Of a stretch of 64,000 nucleotides of DNA, positions 12,001 through 42,000 are shown piece by piece. Numbering within the stretch: the first letter of the stretch is position 1; every line of letters begins with the position of its first letter. The stretch spans positions 124,186,001 through 124,250,000 of the forward strand of contig NW_026262668.1 of assembly GCF_021869535.1 (NCBI RefSeq), given 5' to 3'. Made by a program: the position numbers. Source of the stretch: Mytilus californianus (Eukaryota).

Positions 12001-15000
12001 GTTAATGTGTGGTCTTTTAATGGACCTTGCATTGAATAATGAGACTTTAGCAATTGTAACAGTCTGAACAATGACCTGTAGATGTGTGGTCTTTTAAATA
12101 CCTTACATTGAATAATGAGACTTTAGCAATTGTAAAAGTCTGAACAATGACCTGTTAATGTGTGGTCTTTTAATGGACCTTACATTGAATAATGAGACTT
12201 CAGCAATTGTAACAGTCTGAACAATGACCTGTTAATGTGTGGTCTTTTAATGGACCTTACATTGAATAATGAGACTTTAGCAATTGTAACAGTCTGAACA
12301 ATGACCTGTAGATGTGTGGTCTTTTAATGGACCTTACATTGAATAATGAGACTTTAGCAATTGAAACAGTCTGAACAATGATCTGTAGATGTGTGATCTT
12401 TTAATGGACCTTACATTGAATAATGAGACTTTAGCAATAATGTAAAAGTCTGAACAATGATCTGTAGATGTGTGATCTTTTAATGGACCTTACATTGAAG
12501 TATGAGACTGCCTATGGTAAAAGCCTGAACAGGACCCTGTAGATGTGCTATCTTTTGATGGACCTTACCTTAGAGTATAAGACTAAAGAATTTTTTTTAG
12601 TTGTTTAATGATTGTCAATGAGACAACTATCCATGAAGACCAAAATATGAGGATGTAAATGACCATAGCTCACTGTAAGGCATTCAAAATAATAAAAATC
12701 TGAACAGTATAATTTGTTGGCTGTGAAAGGCACCAACATGAACAAATTGTGAAACAGTTCCAAAGAGAAAACCAACAGCCTGATTTATGGGGAAAAAATT
12801 TAATGAAAAACATATACTGCAACATCAAAAGACAACCACTGAATTACAGACTCCTGTCAGGGGACAGGCACTTAAACAATATGTCAGGGCTTACTCTCTC
12901 CATAACCTGGGACAATGATGTAACAGCACAGAACAAACTGTGAAATTCACTAAGGCTCAAGTTACAGAATATAGAACTTGATGATTATGTAAGGAAAAAT
13001 GAATTAGAACCAATAAAAATCTTTCTTGGACACATCTTTCTTAGAATATTTTTATATAGCACTAACTTCAGTTAGAATATTTTTATATAGCACTAACTTC
13101 AGCAGAAAAAATTATTTTCAGAAAGAACAAACAATTTGTAAATAACATGTTTTCACTGATGTTTGCAGGTACAATTATTCCATAAGAACACCAATGGTAG
13201 TTTTATAGCCAGCTCTAACATCAACAGGATACCAGTACAGGCATTCCAACATGGATCTGAAGTTATCTGATCTATACTTGTTTTCTTTGATGGTAATAAT
13301 TAGTTGGACAGGAATTTTATCACAAAAGCGTAAGTGAGACAAACTTTCTGTGAATGTTTTACTTTTTAGTTTTTATGAGGTGAGATATATATCCAATTAT
13401 CAATGCAAACAGACAAACTTAAAAAAAATATGATTGGTTTTGTGCCAAAATATAATTTGTGTTGTAACATATGACTATCTTGGTTCTAAATTAAGATTTG
13501 GCATTTACATGATATTATTTTCAGGTGTTTCATTATATAAATGTTAGGATTTTATTTTATTCTAGTATTACAGAAAGATTAGTGAAAAATCAGACATCAA
13601 TTTTTATACGACCGCAAAAATATTTTGGGGTCATATAATGCTATCACGTCGTCGTCAGCGTTGTTGTCGTCCGAAGACATTTGGTTTTCAGACAATAACT
13701 TTAGTTTAAGTGTATGGATCTCTATGAAATTAAACAAAAGGTTCAATACCACAAAAGGAAGGTTGGGATTGTTTTTGGGGGTGATGGTCCCAACCGTTTA
13801 GGAAATTAGGGGGCCAAAAAGGTGCCCAAAACAAGCATTTTTCTAGTTTCAGGACAATAACTTGTGTATAAGTATTTTGATTGCTCTGAAATTGTACCAC
13901 AAGGTTCAATACCACAAGTAGAAGGTTGGGATTCATGGGGTAATTGCCCAAACCATTCAGGAATTAGGGGCTAAAAAGGGTCTAAAACAAATATTTTTCT
14001 AGTTTTCAGACAATAACTTGTGTTTATGTGTACTGATGTCTCTTAAATTGTACCTTATTGTACGAAAAGAAAATTTCTTCAAACGTTATATTTTTTTGGG
14101 GTCACAATTTATTTTGCTAATTCTTTGTATATAGTCTGAAAACAGATTTACTAAGTATTGTGCAACAGCACAGTGTATTGCACAAAAGCAAGAAATCCTC
14201 AATTGAATATAAATTCAAATCATATAACCAATTTCAAGTTCTTTAACTACATTTATTTTGTGTTATATGTAAACTAGGCACAATGTCCACATTGTCTACA
14301 AAATTTGTTAACAAAATTCTAAACTGTAAAAAATATATAGTTACTAGCATTGTATACTTATATACATTGTATAAATAGTTCATGTAATAAACTTGAATTC
14401 AAATATAGAAAAATATTGTAACCCAACAACATAGTCATGTTAGTGAATTGTTTGAATATTTTTATTTGGGATGCAAAGGCCTTATAGAGGTATACTTTGT
14501 TCTAGTTCAATAATTAAAGCCAAATTAAAGCTGTTGTGAAGAAAAAATTAATTGAAGGGACAACTGCTTCATTTTTTGGTACAGCTGATAATTGACTTTT
14601 CATTGAGAGGGTCTCTGCCCTCCAGAATGTTGTACCCATTAATGTTTCACATCTGCAAGGTCTGCCTCCTTGTATATGATTGAAATATACAAGCCCTGTT
14701 GTTTGTTTATTACTTATGTAAATTATGACTGAGTATGGATCAAGTGTTAATGTTGTAGAAATATCTATCATCCTAAAGACAAGAAACTCAGCATCTGTTC
14801 TGAGGTAACTGTAAGGTAGATATTAGAGAGGATAGATAAGGGGGCAATAGGTTTTTATACGACCGCAAAAAAAAAATCTGATTTATATCAAATTTATAGG
14901 GGGAAAATTCAAAAGATGTATACTATAAACTCTACTATTTATACTTTAGAGTGACACAAAAAGGTCATGCACTTTCTATTTCTGTGGGTCAAGATATGCT

Positions 15001-39000: not shown

Positions 39001-42000
39001 TATATTCATATATATATATTTCTTATTATTTTAGATAAAAACTATGAGGACACGAAAACACAAAACCCAGACAATTGGTTTGGTAGGACAGGCCGTATAG
39101 ATCCTGATGATCCATATGATCAAGGAATTGCCCCTGAACCCTTTAATCCAACGTCGGAAAATGATCAGATTATACCATATGGAGAAAACAATAAAGATGA
39201 AACAATCGATTACAGTGATGTGGATTTTACTGGCAAAACACAGGGTGAAAATACAAGTCAGAAAAAATCTGCTGAAAAGGATATAGATGTTTGGACTATA
39301 TATATTATTGTAGGCTCAGTGGCAGGAGGGGTGCTGTTAATTGGAGTAGTGGCAATTGTTGTGGCATTATGTTGTAACAGATATGAGGATGATGGTTATA
39401 AACACACAAATGTTTGACTATAGGAGAGATTTCCATGGTAACAAACATTTAAAGAGGAATACTTGAGGAAATTTTGCCATGGAAATTGAAGACCTAAGGT
39501 TTAATAAACCTAATCATGTAGACATTGAAATACATTATAGCATTGTTGTTGTTGATAGTTAAAAGACACAAATATCAAGATGTACTTTAGATATTAAAAA
39601 AAGTGCAATAAATATTTCTATAGTATACTTAAAGACACTTGATGTGCAAGAAGTATACTTTTCTATTCGTTTGTATAAACTTTGAAGACACTAGATGTGC
39701 AAGAAGTTTACATTTATAGAAGTATATTTATTTATATAAATGTGTAAACTTTGTAAGACTATCTTCCTAACAAAGGTGCAGACCAATTTGACAATACACA
39801 CATGACTATTATCAATTACATATATAGTATGTGTAATATAGTGTATTGTTACAAAGTTGTATAGTAACTGGGATTTTTATAGGCTATACAAAGAGGATGA
39901 GGACATATTAGAGTGATCCTAATTACATTGTATGATCCAATGTATCGCATAGAAGCAGGTAGATATATAATCCTGGTATATTTATATGCCTGTAGATTCT
40001 TGACACTGTAAGGAATCCCGTGTTTATGTGGGTTTAATTGATTGGTTTTATAAGAATACATGTCATATTTGTCTTAGCATTCGATATATAAAACAAGATG
40101 GTTACTGCAAGAGTAGAATACATTTGTTATGTAAATAAGAATAATAAACCACAACACCTGATTTAATGGTCACTTAAACTTTACATGTAGGCTGTGTTAT
40201 TTGCTAGACCATCAAAATTGATCTAAAAATAAGTATATAACTATATGATTTACAGTACATTGTTATCATAGAAACTGACAATTACTAGAAAGCAAATGCA
40301 TGAATGAAAAAATATGGACAGAATCCCAAAATGATATGGAAAGGTGTTAAACCTTGGTATAATTTCATTTTCAGTACCGGGGGTAATTGTTCATAGTTAT
40401 CTAAATCAATCTTGCCTATTTGTTCTGAGTTAGGATATTAGTTTGATTATTTCAAACCAAAAGGATAGTGCTTTGTTTATTTTCAGTGAAGATGCACTGA
40501 AATATCTGGAATATAAAACACAATTTAATCATTTAGTAAATGAAAATCCATTACGGTCAAAGAATGCAGTGTTCACATTTTGCCCTGAATGATGTATTTT
40601 TTGTTTTTTAAAGGGAGATAATTAGACTTTTTTTTAAAGATTTTTTGGTCAGTTATTTGAGTCCATTGAAATTTTTTAAAACCACAATTACATTACATAT
40701 TTTAATTGAGTTTTTGTTTTATGGAAGGGAAATATTAAAGAATTTTTATTCTCAGAAGTTATTTTAACACCTAACATGACATTATTTTCACTGTTATCAT
40801 TCAAATCAGGGATTTTATAAAGAATAATAATACTCAACTGTTTATTGACTGTTTGTTGTAATTTTGTTTAATTATTTATGAGTGTTAATGTGTTTTGTGT
40901 TTTATATATGGTCATATATGAGCCAACAATATTCAGTATGTATGCTATGATTACTGGTTTCTTCGGTTTATATCAGGATTTTTTTTTAGAGAAAAAAAGA
41001 TATGTCTTACAATTTTCACTTGTACTTTTTTAAAAACATTTTGAAACAGGATTGATATTTGTATCCACTTACATTATTACCAAAAACCTGAAGTTCACAG
41101 AAATATTCTATTGTGATATTAACATTGTTACATAGTGATAACATTGTTACATATTGTTAACATTGTTACATATTGATAACATTGTTACATATTGTTAACA
41201 TTGTTACATATTGATAACATTGTTACATATTGATAACATTGTTACATATTGTTAACATTGTTACATATTGATAACATTGTATTTATATTTTGACAATCAT
41301 TTGTTACATCATACATTGTACATTGTCTATCAGCATTCACTACATAACATTTAAGAAATCCTTTCTGTACACATACATACTTTTAAAAAAATATCAGTGA
41401 AATGTTTAACTTTTATCAACCAGTGATGGAATCGAACTACAGTAAAATTTTAGAAACGGCTTATCTTGGACATGCAGAGGTTCCTACATGGCTTGATTTA
41501 GGCAAAAATTATTTCATCTTTTTCTACAGATTTTAAAAATTATTTTATTGTCTCGATTAGGTTCTGGTTATATACCTAGTGAATGGTATTATTTTTTAAA
41601 CTTATTTTACATAACAAAAAATACTGTACTTTTGGTACATGATTAGTAGAGAGCTCAGTTGTGCAAACTTTTAGGCAGTTACTGTAATACCAAAGAATTG
41701 TTCACTTAATAACACAACGGGTAATTTATTTTGAATAGCTTTGATATTTTATTTTCATCTACTTGTTTAAGATTTATTTGATATTGTAAAGATTGAAACA
41801 GTTGTTTTATAGTGTTTATAAGTATTTGCATGATTTGTTATGTATAAGTTATGTCTTGGCTAAATGGATTTGTTCAGCACTCCTGCAACTAAGAAATACT
41901 CATGAACTTTGTATATATTTTTGCCTCTGAAAATGTGGCATATATAAGTTTATCATTTACAGCTGACTAAGATTGTCTTCATCTTCATAATCTAATTGAA

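What the first reader, a model, noticed from the sequence alone, without database searches (positions are those of the whole stretch)
13251..39417. Two-Ig, kinase-less FGFR-like receptor with a mucin-like stalk: candidate FGF decoy or co-receptor
Seen: six exons splice in frame into signal peptide, D2-like Ig, D3-like Ig, an ectodomain linker of roughly 200 aa, a TM helix and a 13-aa tail. I found no D1 exon and no kinase exons. Known: vertebrate FGFRL1 and planarian nou-darake are kinase-less FGF traps, and vertebrate FGFRL1 has three Ig domains and no long Thr stalk. Inference: this looks like a mollusc variant that raises the D2-D3 ligand-binding unit on an O-glycosylated stalk, in a syndecan- or mucin-like way.
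Basis: partly seen in the sequence, partly recalled or inferred. Interest (0 to 1): 0.65.

Follow-up and report, generated by a model that had tools for sequence, protein, structure and literature searches.

The report
Kinase-less FGFR-like receptor on a stalk
A six-exon gene model encodes a membrane protein with the two ligand-binding domains of an FGF receptor, a long threonine-rich and highly charged stalk and no kinase, so it probably modulates FGF signals instead of transmitting them; it is a variant of a known kind of receptor.

Summary
Six + strand exons (13251-13329, 28636-28805, 32647-32770, 33504-33667, 34754-35231, 39035-39417) have GT-AG borders and compatible phases (1,0,1,0,1), giving 465 codons. 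Searched exon by exon, exons 2-5 are the N- and C-halves of two I-set Ig domains. They map in order onto one solved FGFR3 chain at residues 123-167, 178-214, 226-261 and 290-327. The two C-halves are specifically FGFR D2-like and D3-like (27.8 against 7.8 bits; 31.1 against 11.6 bits).

No D1-type Ig exon and no kinase motif was found anywhere in the window. Then come a TM helix and a 13-residue tail ending T-N-V.

The decoy or co-receptor reading is plausible but untested. Both Ig domains are split by phase-0 introns, which suggests descent from a classical FGFR, not FGFRL1 orthology (PMC2754479). There is no transcript evidence, no phylogeny and no joined-protein search. This is a new variant of a known kind, of moderate interest.

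The parts
13251..13329 (+). Exon 1: ATG plus 26 codons and 1 nt. It is a candidate signal peptide with a 12-residue hydrophobic core and a GTAAGT donor.
   Evidence: It is 1 of 288 upstream candidates with both a hydrophobic core (Kyte-Doolittle 2.4) and a GTRAG donor. Pfam gives nothing. The assignment is inferred.
28636..28805 (+). Exon 2 (170 nt, phase 1 to 0): N-half of Ig domain 1 (D2-type), with the first Cys and the core Trp.
   Evidence: Ig_3 7.8e-09, I-set profile 10-45; a single stretch on FGFR3 chain 1ry7_B, residues 123-167, 43.1 bits. Only 3 of the 60 rows shown are FGFR.
32647..32770 (+). Exon 3 (124 nt, phase 0 to 1): C-half of Ig domain 1, with the D-x-G-x-Y-x-C motif and an NFT sequon.
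   Evidence: I-set profile 54-90. FGFR2 D2 C-half 27.8 bits against 7.8 bits on D3, with 16 of 37 aligned residues identical. 24 of the 60 rows shown are FGFR.
33504..33667 (+). Exon 4 (164 nt, phase 1 to 0): N-half of Ig domain 2 (D3-type), with two NQT sequons.
   Evidence: I-set profile 5-40. FGFR1 D3 N-half (1cvs_C 119-154), 25-26 bits. 7 of the 60 rows shown are FGFR, and they do not rank highest.
34754..34876 (+). Exon 5, first 41 codons: C-half of Ig domain 2 (D3-type).
   Evidence: rows 1-18 of the 60 shown are all FGFR1-4. FGFR2 D3 C-half scores 31.1 bits against 11.6 bits on D2, with 20 of 39 aligned residues identical.
34877..35038 (+). Exon 5: Thr/Pro run of 54 residues (44 T, 8 P, 2 S), a candidate O-glycosylated mucin-like segment.
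   Evidence: Thr codons are ACA 18, ACT 17, ACC 7, ACG 2; only imperfect tandem repeats, 64-71% matches; no secondary structure, pLDDT about 50.
35039..35101 (+). Exon 5: 21-residue acidic patch (7 D/E).
35102..35200 (+). Exon 5: 33-residue polybasic run (26 K/R).
   Evidence: AAG 12, AAA 11; no GT between 34981 and 35230, so no canonical intron can start within it; modelled as a helix, residues 112-151.
35201..35231 (+). End of exon 5, with the phase-1 donor TATG|gtaatt.
   Evidence: Reading through the donor reaches a stop after 8 codons (ORF end 35257).
39035..39294 (+). Exon 6, pre-TM part: 86 residues, acidic (20 D/E, 9 K/R), with one NTS sequon.
   Evidence: no secondary structure, pLDDT 44-57; no family and no solved relative.
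39295..39375 (+). Transmembrane segment of 27 residues, ending in Cys-Cys.
   Evidence: best 19-residue Kyte-Doolittle window 2.88; helix 85-119, pLDDT 85-92.
39376..39417 (+). 13-residue cytoplasmic tail ending T-N-V, plus the TGA stop.
   Evidence: AATAAA at 39503 and 39607 is uninformative in DNA this AT-rich.

Best explanation
This is an intact gene for a single-pass type I membrane protein derived from the FGF-receptor family. The model runs: a signal peptide (inferred), the FGFR-type D2-D3 ligand-binding Ig pair, a 205-residue unstructured stalk, a TM helix and a 13-residue tail. The stalk holds a Thr/Pro mucin-like run, an acidic patch, a Lys run and an acidic segment. The tail has a juxtamembrane Cys-Cys and a C-terminal T-N-V.

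The protein has no kinase, so it cannot signal by transphosphorylation. The most likely action is to bind FGF ligand and/or heparan sulfate at the cell surface. It could also pair unproductively with the kinase-bearing FGFR. Either way it would damp or shape FGF signalling as a decoy, a dominant negative or a co-receptor.

Shown: the exon model, the Ig halves, the FGFR-specific similarity of the two C-halves, collinearity with solved FGFR chains, the composition of the stalk, the TM helix, and the absence of D1 and kinase sequence in the window.

Inferred: use of exon 1 and of the E5-E6 junction, O-glycosylation, ligand binding, the effect on signalling, palmitoylation of the Cys-Cys, and PDZ binding of the T-N-V end. 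The PDZ inference rests on the class I consensus S/T-x-hydrophobic, which I recall from general knowledge.
For: Gene model: GT-AG borders at every intron and phases 1,0,1,0,1.

Ig halves: Pfam finds complementary Ig halves in four successive exons.

Collinearity: one FGFR3 chain (1ry7_B) is matched in order by E2 at 123-167, E3 at 178-214, E4 at 226-261 and E5 at 290-327.

Domain specificity:
- E3 scores 27.8 bits on FGFR2 D2 against 7.8 bits on D3. The four higher-ranked multi-Ig proteins have best single domains of only 10.1-13.9 bits.
- E5 scores 31.1 bits on D3 against 11.6 bits on D2, and rows 1-18 of 60 are all FGFR.
- Identities to human FGFR2 are 16/37 and 20/39. The reported average for scallop FGFR Ig domains against vertebrate ones is 36% (PMC11814522, passages).

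Integrity: both Ig domains keep the Cys pair and the core Trp, and there are four N-x-S/T sequons.

Missing parts: no kinase motif (0 of 7 patterns in six frames) and no other Ig exon.

Downstream region: five + strand ORFs downstream gave 0 Pfam families. The next recognisable gene is an opposite-strand 7tm_1 ORF at 54277-55542.

TM helix and disordered pre-TM segment.

Literature:
- Kinase-less FGFRL1 binds FGF8 through Ig2 with a KD of 2-3 nM (PMC7600612, abstract).
- FGFRL1 is regarded as a decoy among other roles (PMC12026108, abstract and passages).
Against: - There is no transcript evidence for any junction.
- E1 is 15.3 kb upstream and was chosen only by hydrophobicity and donor strength.
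- The N-half exons are not FGFR-specific in the PDB ranking. Only 3 of 60 rows for E2 and 7 of 60 for E4 are FGFR. Robo, NCAM2 and LAR chains rank higher by summed score.
- The first 34 residues of E2 alone find nothing.
- By the coordinates, the D2-D3 linker is about 3 residues shorter and the middle of D3 about 12 residues shorter than in human FGFR3.
- The exon-encoded linker residues contain no Arg, and the split codon reads Lys. I recall, without a check here, that a linker Arg is important for FGF binding. Ligand binding may therefore be altered or lost.
- A 33-residue Lys run is odd in an ectodomain. Low-complexity tracts stay open in several frames, so their coding status rests on the flanking ordinary sequence.
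- No phylogeny was possible.
Confidence: 0.55

Rival explanations
1. The model is the 5' part, or a short isoform, of a kinase-bearing FGFR gene. Its juxtamembrane and kinase exons would lie beyond the window, reached from a donor inside exon 6.
For: GT dinucleotides in phase 1 follow the TM segment at 39373 (gtaaca) and 39394. Two of the donors used in the model (gtatta, gtaatt) are no stronger. The window ends 24.6 kb after the stop.
Against: - A stop follows 13 codons after the TM segment.
- No kinase motif occurs in any frame of the window.
- An opposite-strand GPCR-type ORF lies at 54277-55542.
- The canonical FGFR gene of a scallop spans 22.6 kb in all, with 17 coding exons, three Ig domains and the TM at residues 367-389, after an Ig region that ends at 339 (PMC11814522). 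That differs from two Ig domains and a 205-residue linker.
Confidence: 0.12
2. It is a partial duplicate of an FGFR gene (D2-D3-TM exons) that is not expressed or not functional, with low-complexity expansions accumulating in a decaying exon.
For: - D1, the acid box and the kinase are absent.
- Thr and Lys low-complexity tracts sit inside exon 5.
- The introns are full of tandem arrays and dispersed repeats.
- The first exon is uncertain.
Against: - There is no in-frame stop or frameshift over 465 codons, against a background of one stop per 17.1 codons.
- All ten splice dinucleotides are canonical.
- The Cys pair and core Trp are kept in both Ig domains.
- Identity to FGFR2 is high in the C-halves.
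- The Thr run uses four synonymous codons.
Confidence: 0.15
3. It is an FGFR-derived Ig pair co-opted for something other than FGF: a mucin-type adhesion or recognition receptor. It would hold two Ig domains out on a glycosylated stalk, and the charged stalk would bind matrix or cell-surface polyanions.
For: - The D2-D3 linker and the middle of D3 are shortened, and there is no linker Arg.
- The stalk is long, with a Thr/Pro run, a Lys run and acidic segments.
- The look-alikes of exon 6 by protein-language features are small type I glycoproteins: syndecan 0.82, SMAGP 0.82 and TMEM154 0.80. All are under 0.9, so they are leads only.
- FGFRL1 itself promotes heparan-sulfate-dependent cell adhesion (PMC12026108, passages).
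Against: The strongest sequence signal is to the FGF-binding halves of D2 and D3. Pfam finds no syndecan or other adhesion family. The Atlas scores lie in the range that shuffled sequences also reach.
Confidence: 0.15

Closest known systems
FGFRL1 / nou-darake (kinase-less FGFR-like receptors)
   Same: Both have a signal peptide, FGFR-type Ig domains, a TM segment and no kinase. FGFRL1 binds FGF mainly through Ig2 (PMC7600612, abstract). Two-Ig forms exist in insects (PMC2754479, Table 2).
   Different: - FGFRL1 of Lottia, Capitella, planarian and vertebrates has three Ig domains and a spacer of about 20-40 residues before the TM. This gene has two Ig domains and 205 residues.
- FGFRL1 puts IgII in one exon in human, Nematostella and Lottia. 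Here the D2-type domain is split 170+124 nt.
- The vertebrate tail is about 100 residues with a His-rich motif. Here it is 13 residues.
- Orthology was not testable.
Classical FGFR (FGFR1-4; single bivalve Fgfr)
   Same: D2 and D3 similarity is collinear over four exons. D3 is split by an intron into a IIIa-type exon and a single IIIb/c-type exon, as in FGFR1-3 (PMC3238399). The pro-orthologous IIIb/c exon is single in all studied non-chordates; oyster is in their Fig. 7 legend (PMC5703972). A TM exon follows. I recall that two-Ig isoforms of FGFR1 exist; one search lists a paper on FGFR1 beta.
   Different: This gene has no D1, no acid box and no kinase in the window. The linker is 205 residues, against about 27 in scallop FGFR. 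A stop follows 13 codons after the TM.
Engineered kinase-deleted FGFRs used as dominant negatives (recalled, no call)
   Same: Same parts list: ligand-binding ectodomain, TM and no kinase. This is the basis for expecting unproductive heterodimers.
   Different: Those are laboratory truncations of full receptors with normal short linkers. Whether a 205-residue stalk still allows pairing with a normal FGFR is unknown.
Mucin-stalk Ig receptors such as MAdCAM-1, TIM proteins and CD8 (recalled, no call)
   Same: Architecture only: Ig domain(s), a Ser/Thr/Pro-rich stalk, a TM and a short tail.
   Different: No sequence relationship was found or tested. The Ig domains here are FGFR-type.
Syndecan
   Same: Exon 6 resembles small type I glycoproteins by language-model features (0.82). 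The stalk is acidic and the tail short.
   Different: Pfam Syndecan is not matched. The Atlas score is below the 0.9 level at which such hits carry weight.

Membership tests
Classical FGFR receptor tyrosine kinase | FGFR-type D2 and D3 Ig domains in that order | tested here: met
   Searched exon by exon. E3 scores 27.8 bits on FGFR2 D2 against 7.8 on D3. E5 scores 31.1 bits on D3 against 11.6 on D2. The four exons are collinear on 1ry7_B. The N-halves E2 and E4 are generic Ig by rank.
Classical FGFR receptor tyrosine kinase | D1 and acid box N-terminal of D2 | tested here: not met
   No further Ig exon was found in the window by tblastn or by the Y-x-C pattern. A short acid-box exon could not be excluded.
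Classical FGFR receptor tyrosine kinase | Intracellular tyrosine kinase domain | tested here: not met
   0 of 7 kinase motifs in six frames of 64 kb. A stop follows 13 codons after the TM. Five downstream + ORFs gave 0 Pfam families. This holds for the window only.
Classical FGFR receptor tyrosine kinase | IgIII split into a IIIa exon and a IIIb/c-type exon | tested here: met
   E4|E5 is a phase-0 junction inside Ig domain 2, and E5 aligns to the IIIb-encoded half of FGFR2 isoform 2. Family feature taken from PMC3238399 and PMC5703972.
Classical FGFR receptor tyrosine kinase | IgII split into two exons (I recall 170 and 124 bp in vertebrate FGFR genes) | tested here: inconclusive
   E2 and E3 are 170 and 124 nt with a phase-0 junction. 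The vertebrate sizes are recalled only. One search found no paper to confirm them, and Rebscher 2009 is not held.
FGFRL1 / nou-darake | Ig domains plus TM plus a non-kinase tail | tested here: met
   There are two Ig domains where three is usual; two are reported for insects.
FGFRL1 / nou-darake | Orthology by tree or reciprocal best hit | not testable with these tools
   The protein databases were closed, the joined protein was not to be searched, and no FGFRL1 row appeared among the PDB rows shown.
FGFRL1 / nou-darake | One exon per Ig domain with phase-1 borders (in Lottia and Capitella only IgIII is split) | tested here: not met
   Both Ig domains here are split by phase-0 introns, against section 7 of PMC2754479 and PMC12026108. 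Amphioxus and Ciona FGFRL1 also split IgII, so this is suggestive and not decisive.
FGFRL1 / nou-darake | Short spacer between Ig3 and the TM | tested here: not met
   205 residues here, against about 20-40 by the coordinates in Table 2 of PMC2754479.
Syndecan | Syndecan TM and cytoplasmic domain (PF01034) | tested here: not met
   No such Pfam hit at E<=10. Atlas gives only 0.82.
Mucin-type O-glycosylated stalk | Dense Ser/Thr/Pro tract that is actually O-glycosylated | not testable with these tools
   The composition fits: 54 of 54 residues are T, S or P. Glycosylation needs experiment, and no predictor was available.

The most novel reading that the evidence does not exclude
This would be a second, independent origin of a kinase-less FGF receptor. 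A lineage-specific gene made from the D2-D3-TM exons of a classical FGFR, not from FGFRL1, would hold the ligand-binding pair far above the membrane on a mucin-like stalk. The stalk carries its own polybasic and acidic segments. These could bind heparan sulfate, or mimic it towards FGFs and the D2 surface, much as the acid box does in full receptors. The receptor would then carry a built-in co-factor or autoinhibitor.
Probability: 0.2. Interest if true: 0.55.

Novelty: new variant of a known kind. Interest (0 to 1): 0.35.

Why it matters
Kinase-less FGFR relatives (FGFRL1, nou-darake) shape FGF gradients in development and regeneration. A further, structurally different one in a non-model invertebrate would add a regulator that kinase-based surveys miss by design. 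The scallop FGFR survey, for example, kept only genes with both a kinase and Ig domains (PMC11814522).

The stalk poses a testable question: does distance from the membrane, or a charged tether, change how a decoy competes for FGF and heparan sulfate? The finding is still a gene prediction. Truncated receptor decoys are common, so a specialist would find it neat but not startling.

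Tried and rejected
The absence of a kinase rests on the motif scan and on five downstream ORFs.
- PDB search with the first 34 residues of exon 2, to look for an FGFR-specific start of D2: 0 hits at E<=10.
- PDB search with exon 6: only chance-level rows, enolase at E 0.56 and presenilin at E 5.2.
- Atlas look-alikes. Exon 6: best 0.87, with syndecan and SMAGP at 0.82. Exon 5: I-set fragment clusters at 0.82-0.84. All are below 0.9, so they are leads only.
- Rfam over the whole window: 0 matches.
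- Single-exon AlphaFold models. They are useful only for the TM helix and the lack of structure in the stalk. The confident helix over the Lys run may be generic behaviour for such tracts and is not used as evidence.
- An internal intron that would remove the Lys run: rejected. The only GT between 34871 and 35230 is a weak gtcaac at 34980.
- A second IIIb/c-type exon or a D1 exon: none found.
- Literature on FGFR IgII exon sizes and on IgII exon structure: no confirmation. Rebscher 2009 and Steinberg 2010 are not held.
- Searches for a described kinase-less or stalked FGFR in molluscs. They found only Lottia FGFRL1 (PMC2754479), the Aplysia LRR-type relative (PMC4200351, abstract) and the scallop FGFR (PMC11814522).
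- Bacterial, phage, plasmid and E. coli collections were not searched, because they are irrelevant to a spliced animal gene.

Full report
Scope and limits. The window has no N and is AT-rich, with GC about 0.26-0.38 per 2 kb. The joined 465-codon protein was never assembled, searched, aligned or folded. As a result there is no whole-domain score, no whole-protein fold and no phylogeny. Orthologues in other species and the FGFR-versus-FGFRL1 tree therefore stayed unchecked. Figures and supplements of the cited papers were not seen. Nothing suggested a human contig.

Gene model. Stop-to-stop frames on the + strand show five obvious coding pieces between 28.6 and 39.4 kb. With splice sites added, the model is E1 13251-13329, E2 28636-28805, E3 32647-32770, E4 33504-33667, E5 34754-35231 and E6 39035-39417. 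Every intron is GT-AG, three donors are GTAAGT, and every acceptor follows a pyrimidine-rich tract. The phases chain as 1,0,1,0,1 and the total is 1398 nt. The introns are 15306, 3841, 733, 1086 and 3803 nt. In intron 1 a stop occurs every 17.1 codons, so open exons of 41-159 codons in matching phases are not chance.

E1 is the least secure exon. There are 288 upstream ATG-to-phase-1-GT candidates of 15-45 codons. Of these, 21 have a hydrophobic 11-residue window of 2.2 or more, and only E1 also has a GTRAG donor. No signal-peptide predictor or transcript was available.

What the Ig exons are. Pfam matches E2 and E4 to the first half of Ig profiles (I-set positions 10-45 and 5-40). It matches E3 and E5 to the second half (54-90 in both), with E-values from 7.8e-09 to 8.2e-04. 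Against all solved structures, the four exons land in order on one FGFR3 chain (1ry7_B), at 123-167, 178-214, 226-261 and 290-327.

The C-halves are specific. E3 scores 27.8 bits on the D2 half of FGFR2 and 7.8 on D3. The four proteins ranked above FGFR2 are long multi-Ig chains whose best single domains score 10.1-13.9 bits. E5 scores 31.1 bits on the D3 half and 11.6 on D2, and rows 1-18 of the 60 shown are FGFR1-4. Identities are 16 of 37 and 20 of 39 aligned residues. Both exceed the 36% average reported for scallop FGFR Ig domains against vertebrate ones (PMC11814522, passages).

The N-halves are generic. FGFR rows are 3 of 60 for E2 and 7 of 60 for E4, and Robo, NCAM2 and LAR chains rank higher by summed score. 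The first 34 residues of E2 find nothing on their own. Compared with human FGFR3, the same coordinates imply about 3 fewer residues in the D2-D3 linker and about 12 fewer in the middle of D3. The exon-encoded linker residues hold no Arg, and the split codon across intron 3 reads Lys. I recall that a linker Arg matters for FGF binding. That recollection was not checked here, and it is a reason for caution about ligand binding.

What is absent. tblastn of every exon peptide against the window found only the mutual E2-E4 match. The Ig pattern D/E-x-G/A-x-Y-x-C occurs only in E3 and E5 in all six frames. So there is no D1-type exon and no second IIIb/c-type exon in the window. None of seven kinase motifs occurs in any frame. 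Five + strand ORFs downstream gave no Pfam family. The next recognisable gene is an intronless 7tm_1 ORF on the opposite strand at 54277-55542 (49 bits).

Stalk, membrane anchor and tail. After the D3-type half, exon 5 continues with these segments:
- 54 residues that are all Thr, Pro or Ser (44 T), written with four Thr codons.
- A 21-residue acidic patch.
- A 33-residue run with 26 Lys/Arg.
- 10 ordinary residues.
At the DNA level the tracts are only imperfect repeats. No canonical intron could remove the Lys run.

Exon 6 adds 86 acidic residues (20 D/E), a 27-residue hydrophobic segment ending Cys-Cys, and a 13-residue tail ending T-N-V. Single-exon models give a confident helix at the TM segment (pLDDT 85-92) and no structure before it. 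They give no structure for the Thr run. Exon 6 has no Pfam family and no solved relative. Its language-model look-alikes are small type I glycoproteins at scores that are only leads.

Comparison with known receptors. Bertrand et al. (PMC2754479; sections 5-7 read) report one FGFRL1 in the mollusc Lottia. It has three Ig loops and its TM starts about 31 residues after Ig3. They report three Ig loops in nou-darake by SMART, and two Ig loops only in insects. In their survey FGFRL1 has one exon per Ig loop with phase-1 borders in human and Nematostella, and only IgIII is split in Lottia and Capitella. Human FGFRL1 has one exon per Ig domain and a 100-residue His-rich tail (PMC12026108, passages).

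Classical FGFRs split IgIII into IIIa and IIIb/c exons (PMC3238399, passages). All the non-chordates studied have a single IIIb/c-type exon (PMC5703972, section 12). Oyster is among the species named in that paper's Fig. 7 legend.

The gene here splits both Ig domains with phase-0 introns. That fits a classical FGFR better than the lophotrochozoan FGFRL1. Amphioxus and Ciona FGFRL1 also split IgII, so the argument is suggestive only. I recall that the two IgII exons of vertebrate FGFR genes are 170 and 124 bp, the sizes of E2 and E3. No call confirmed this, so it is a lead.

Mechanism. The best-supported reading is a non-signalling member of the FGFR family. It would bind FGF and/or heparan sulfate, and perhaps pair with the kinase-bearing receptor without transphosphorylation. 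Support from relatives:
- FGFRL1 binds FGF8 with nanomolar affinity through Ig2 (PMC7600612, abstract).
- FGFRL1 is shed, scavenges ligand and mediates heparan-sulfate-dependent adhesion (PMC12026108, passages).
The Thr/Pro run would be O-glycosylated and extended. The Lys run and acidic segments could bind polyanions or the basic surfaces of FGF and D2. The Cys-Cys and the T-N-V end suggest palmitoylation and a class I PDZ ligand. All of these points are inferences.

The rivals are a truncated model of a full FGFR (0.12), an unexpressed partial duplicate (0.15) and an FGFR-derived adhesion-type receptor unrelated to FGF (0.15).

Novelty. My searches for a described kinase-less or stalked FGFR in molluscs returned only Lottia FGFRL1, an Aplysia LRR-type relative and the canonical scallop FGFR. 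The scallop survey kept only genes that have a kinase domain. The gene may still be annotated in a public genome that I could not query. I rate it a new variant of a known kind and of moderate interest.

Noticed in passing
window 54277-55542 (- strand): An intronless 421-codon open frame matches the rhodopsin-family 7tm_1 profile (7.7e-13, 49 bits). It is a GPCR-type gene 14.9 kb downstream of the FGFR-like gene, on the other strand.
   Followed up: partly
window 21155-22335 and 22404-23795 (intron 1): Two large adjacent tandem arrays: 47 copies of a 25-nt unit and 27 copies of a 52-nt unit, at 93-95% matches. The 25-nt array gives long open frames in all three + frames that are not genes.
   Followed up: partly
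window 24.4-26.4 kb and 44.7-46.4 kb: The same composite element occurs twice about 19.8-20.1 kb apart, once in intron 1 and once about 5 kb downstream of the gene. It carries 161-nt, 35-nt and 135-nt internal tandem units and is probably a repeat-bearing mobile element (families D9, D12, D13, D16, D17).
   Followed up: no
window 13684-14054, 24478-25122, 44743-45214, 47887-48047; related 5866-6219 and 30320-30681: Dispersed repeat units of about 160 nt give similar short open frames in several places, including introns 1 and 2.
   Followed up: no
window 4514-4807 (-), 46934-47125 (+), 56382-56684 (+): Three copies of another dispersed sequence share a similar 60-100-codon open frame. It is probably a transposon fragment. 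One search scanned only a different + frame that overlaps the 46.9-kb copy (46978-47226) and found no Pfam family.
   Followed up: no
window 35231-35257: If the exon 5 donor is not used, the frame runs 8 more codons to a stop. That would give a soluble form with both Ig domains and most of the stalk but no membrane anchor.
   Followed up: no
window 12005-12568; 8082-9321; 9489-10040; 42533-43893; 57728-58672: Further tandem arrays with units of 77, 41, 69, 41 and 43 nt. The first lies only 0.7 kb upstream of exon 1.
   Followed up: no
window 51583-51966 (+): A 127-codon open frame of ordinary composition has no Pfam family. Its nature is unknown.
   Followed up: partly
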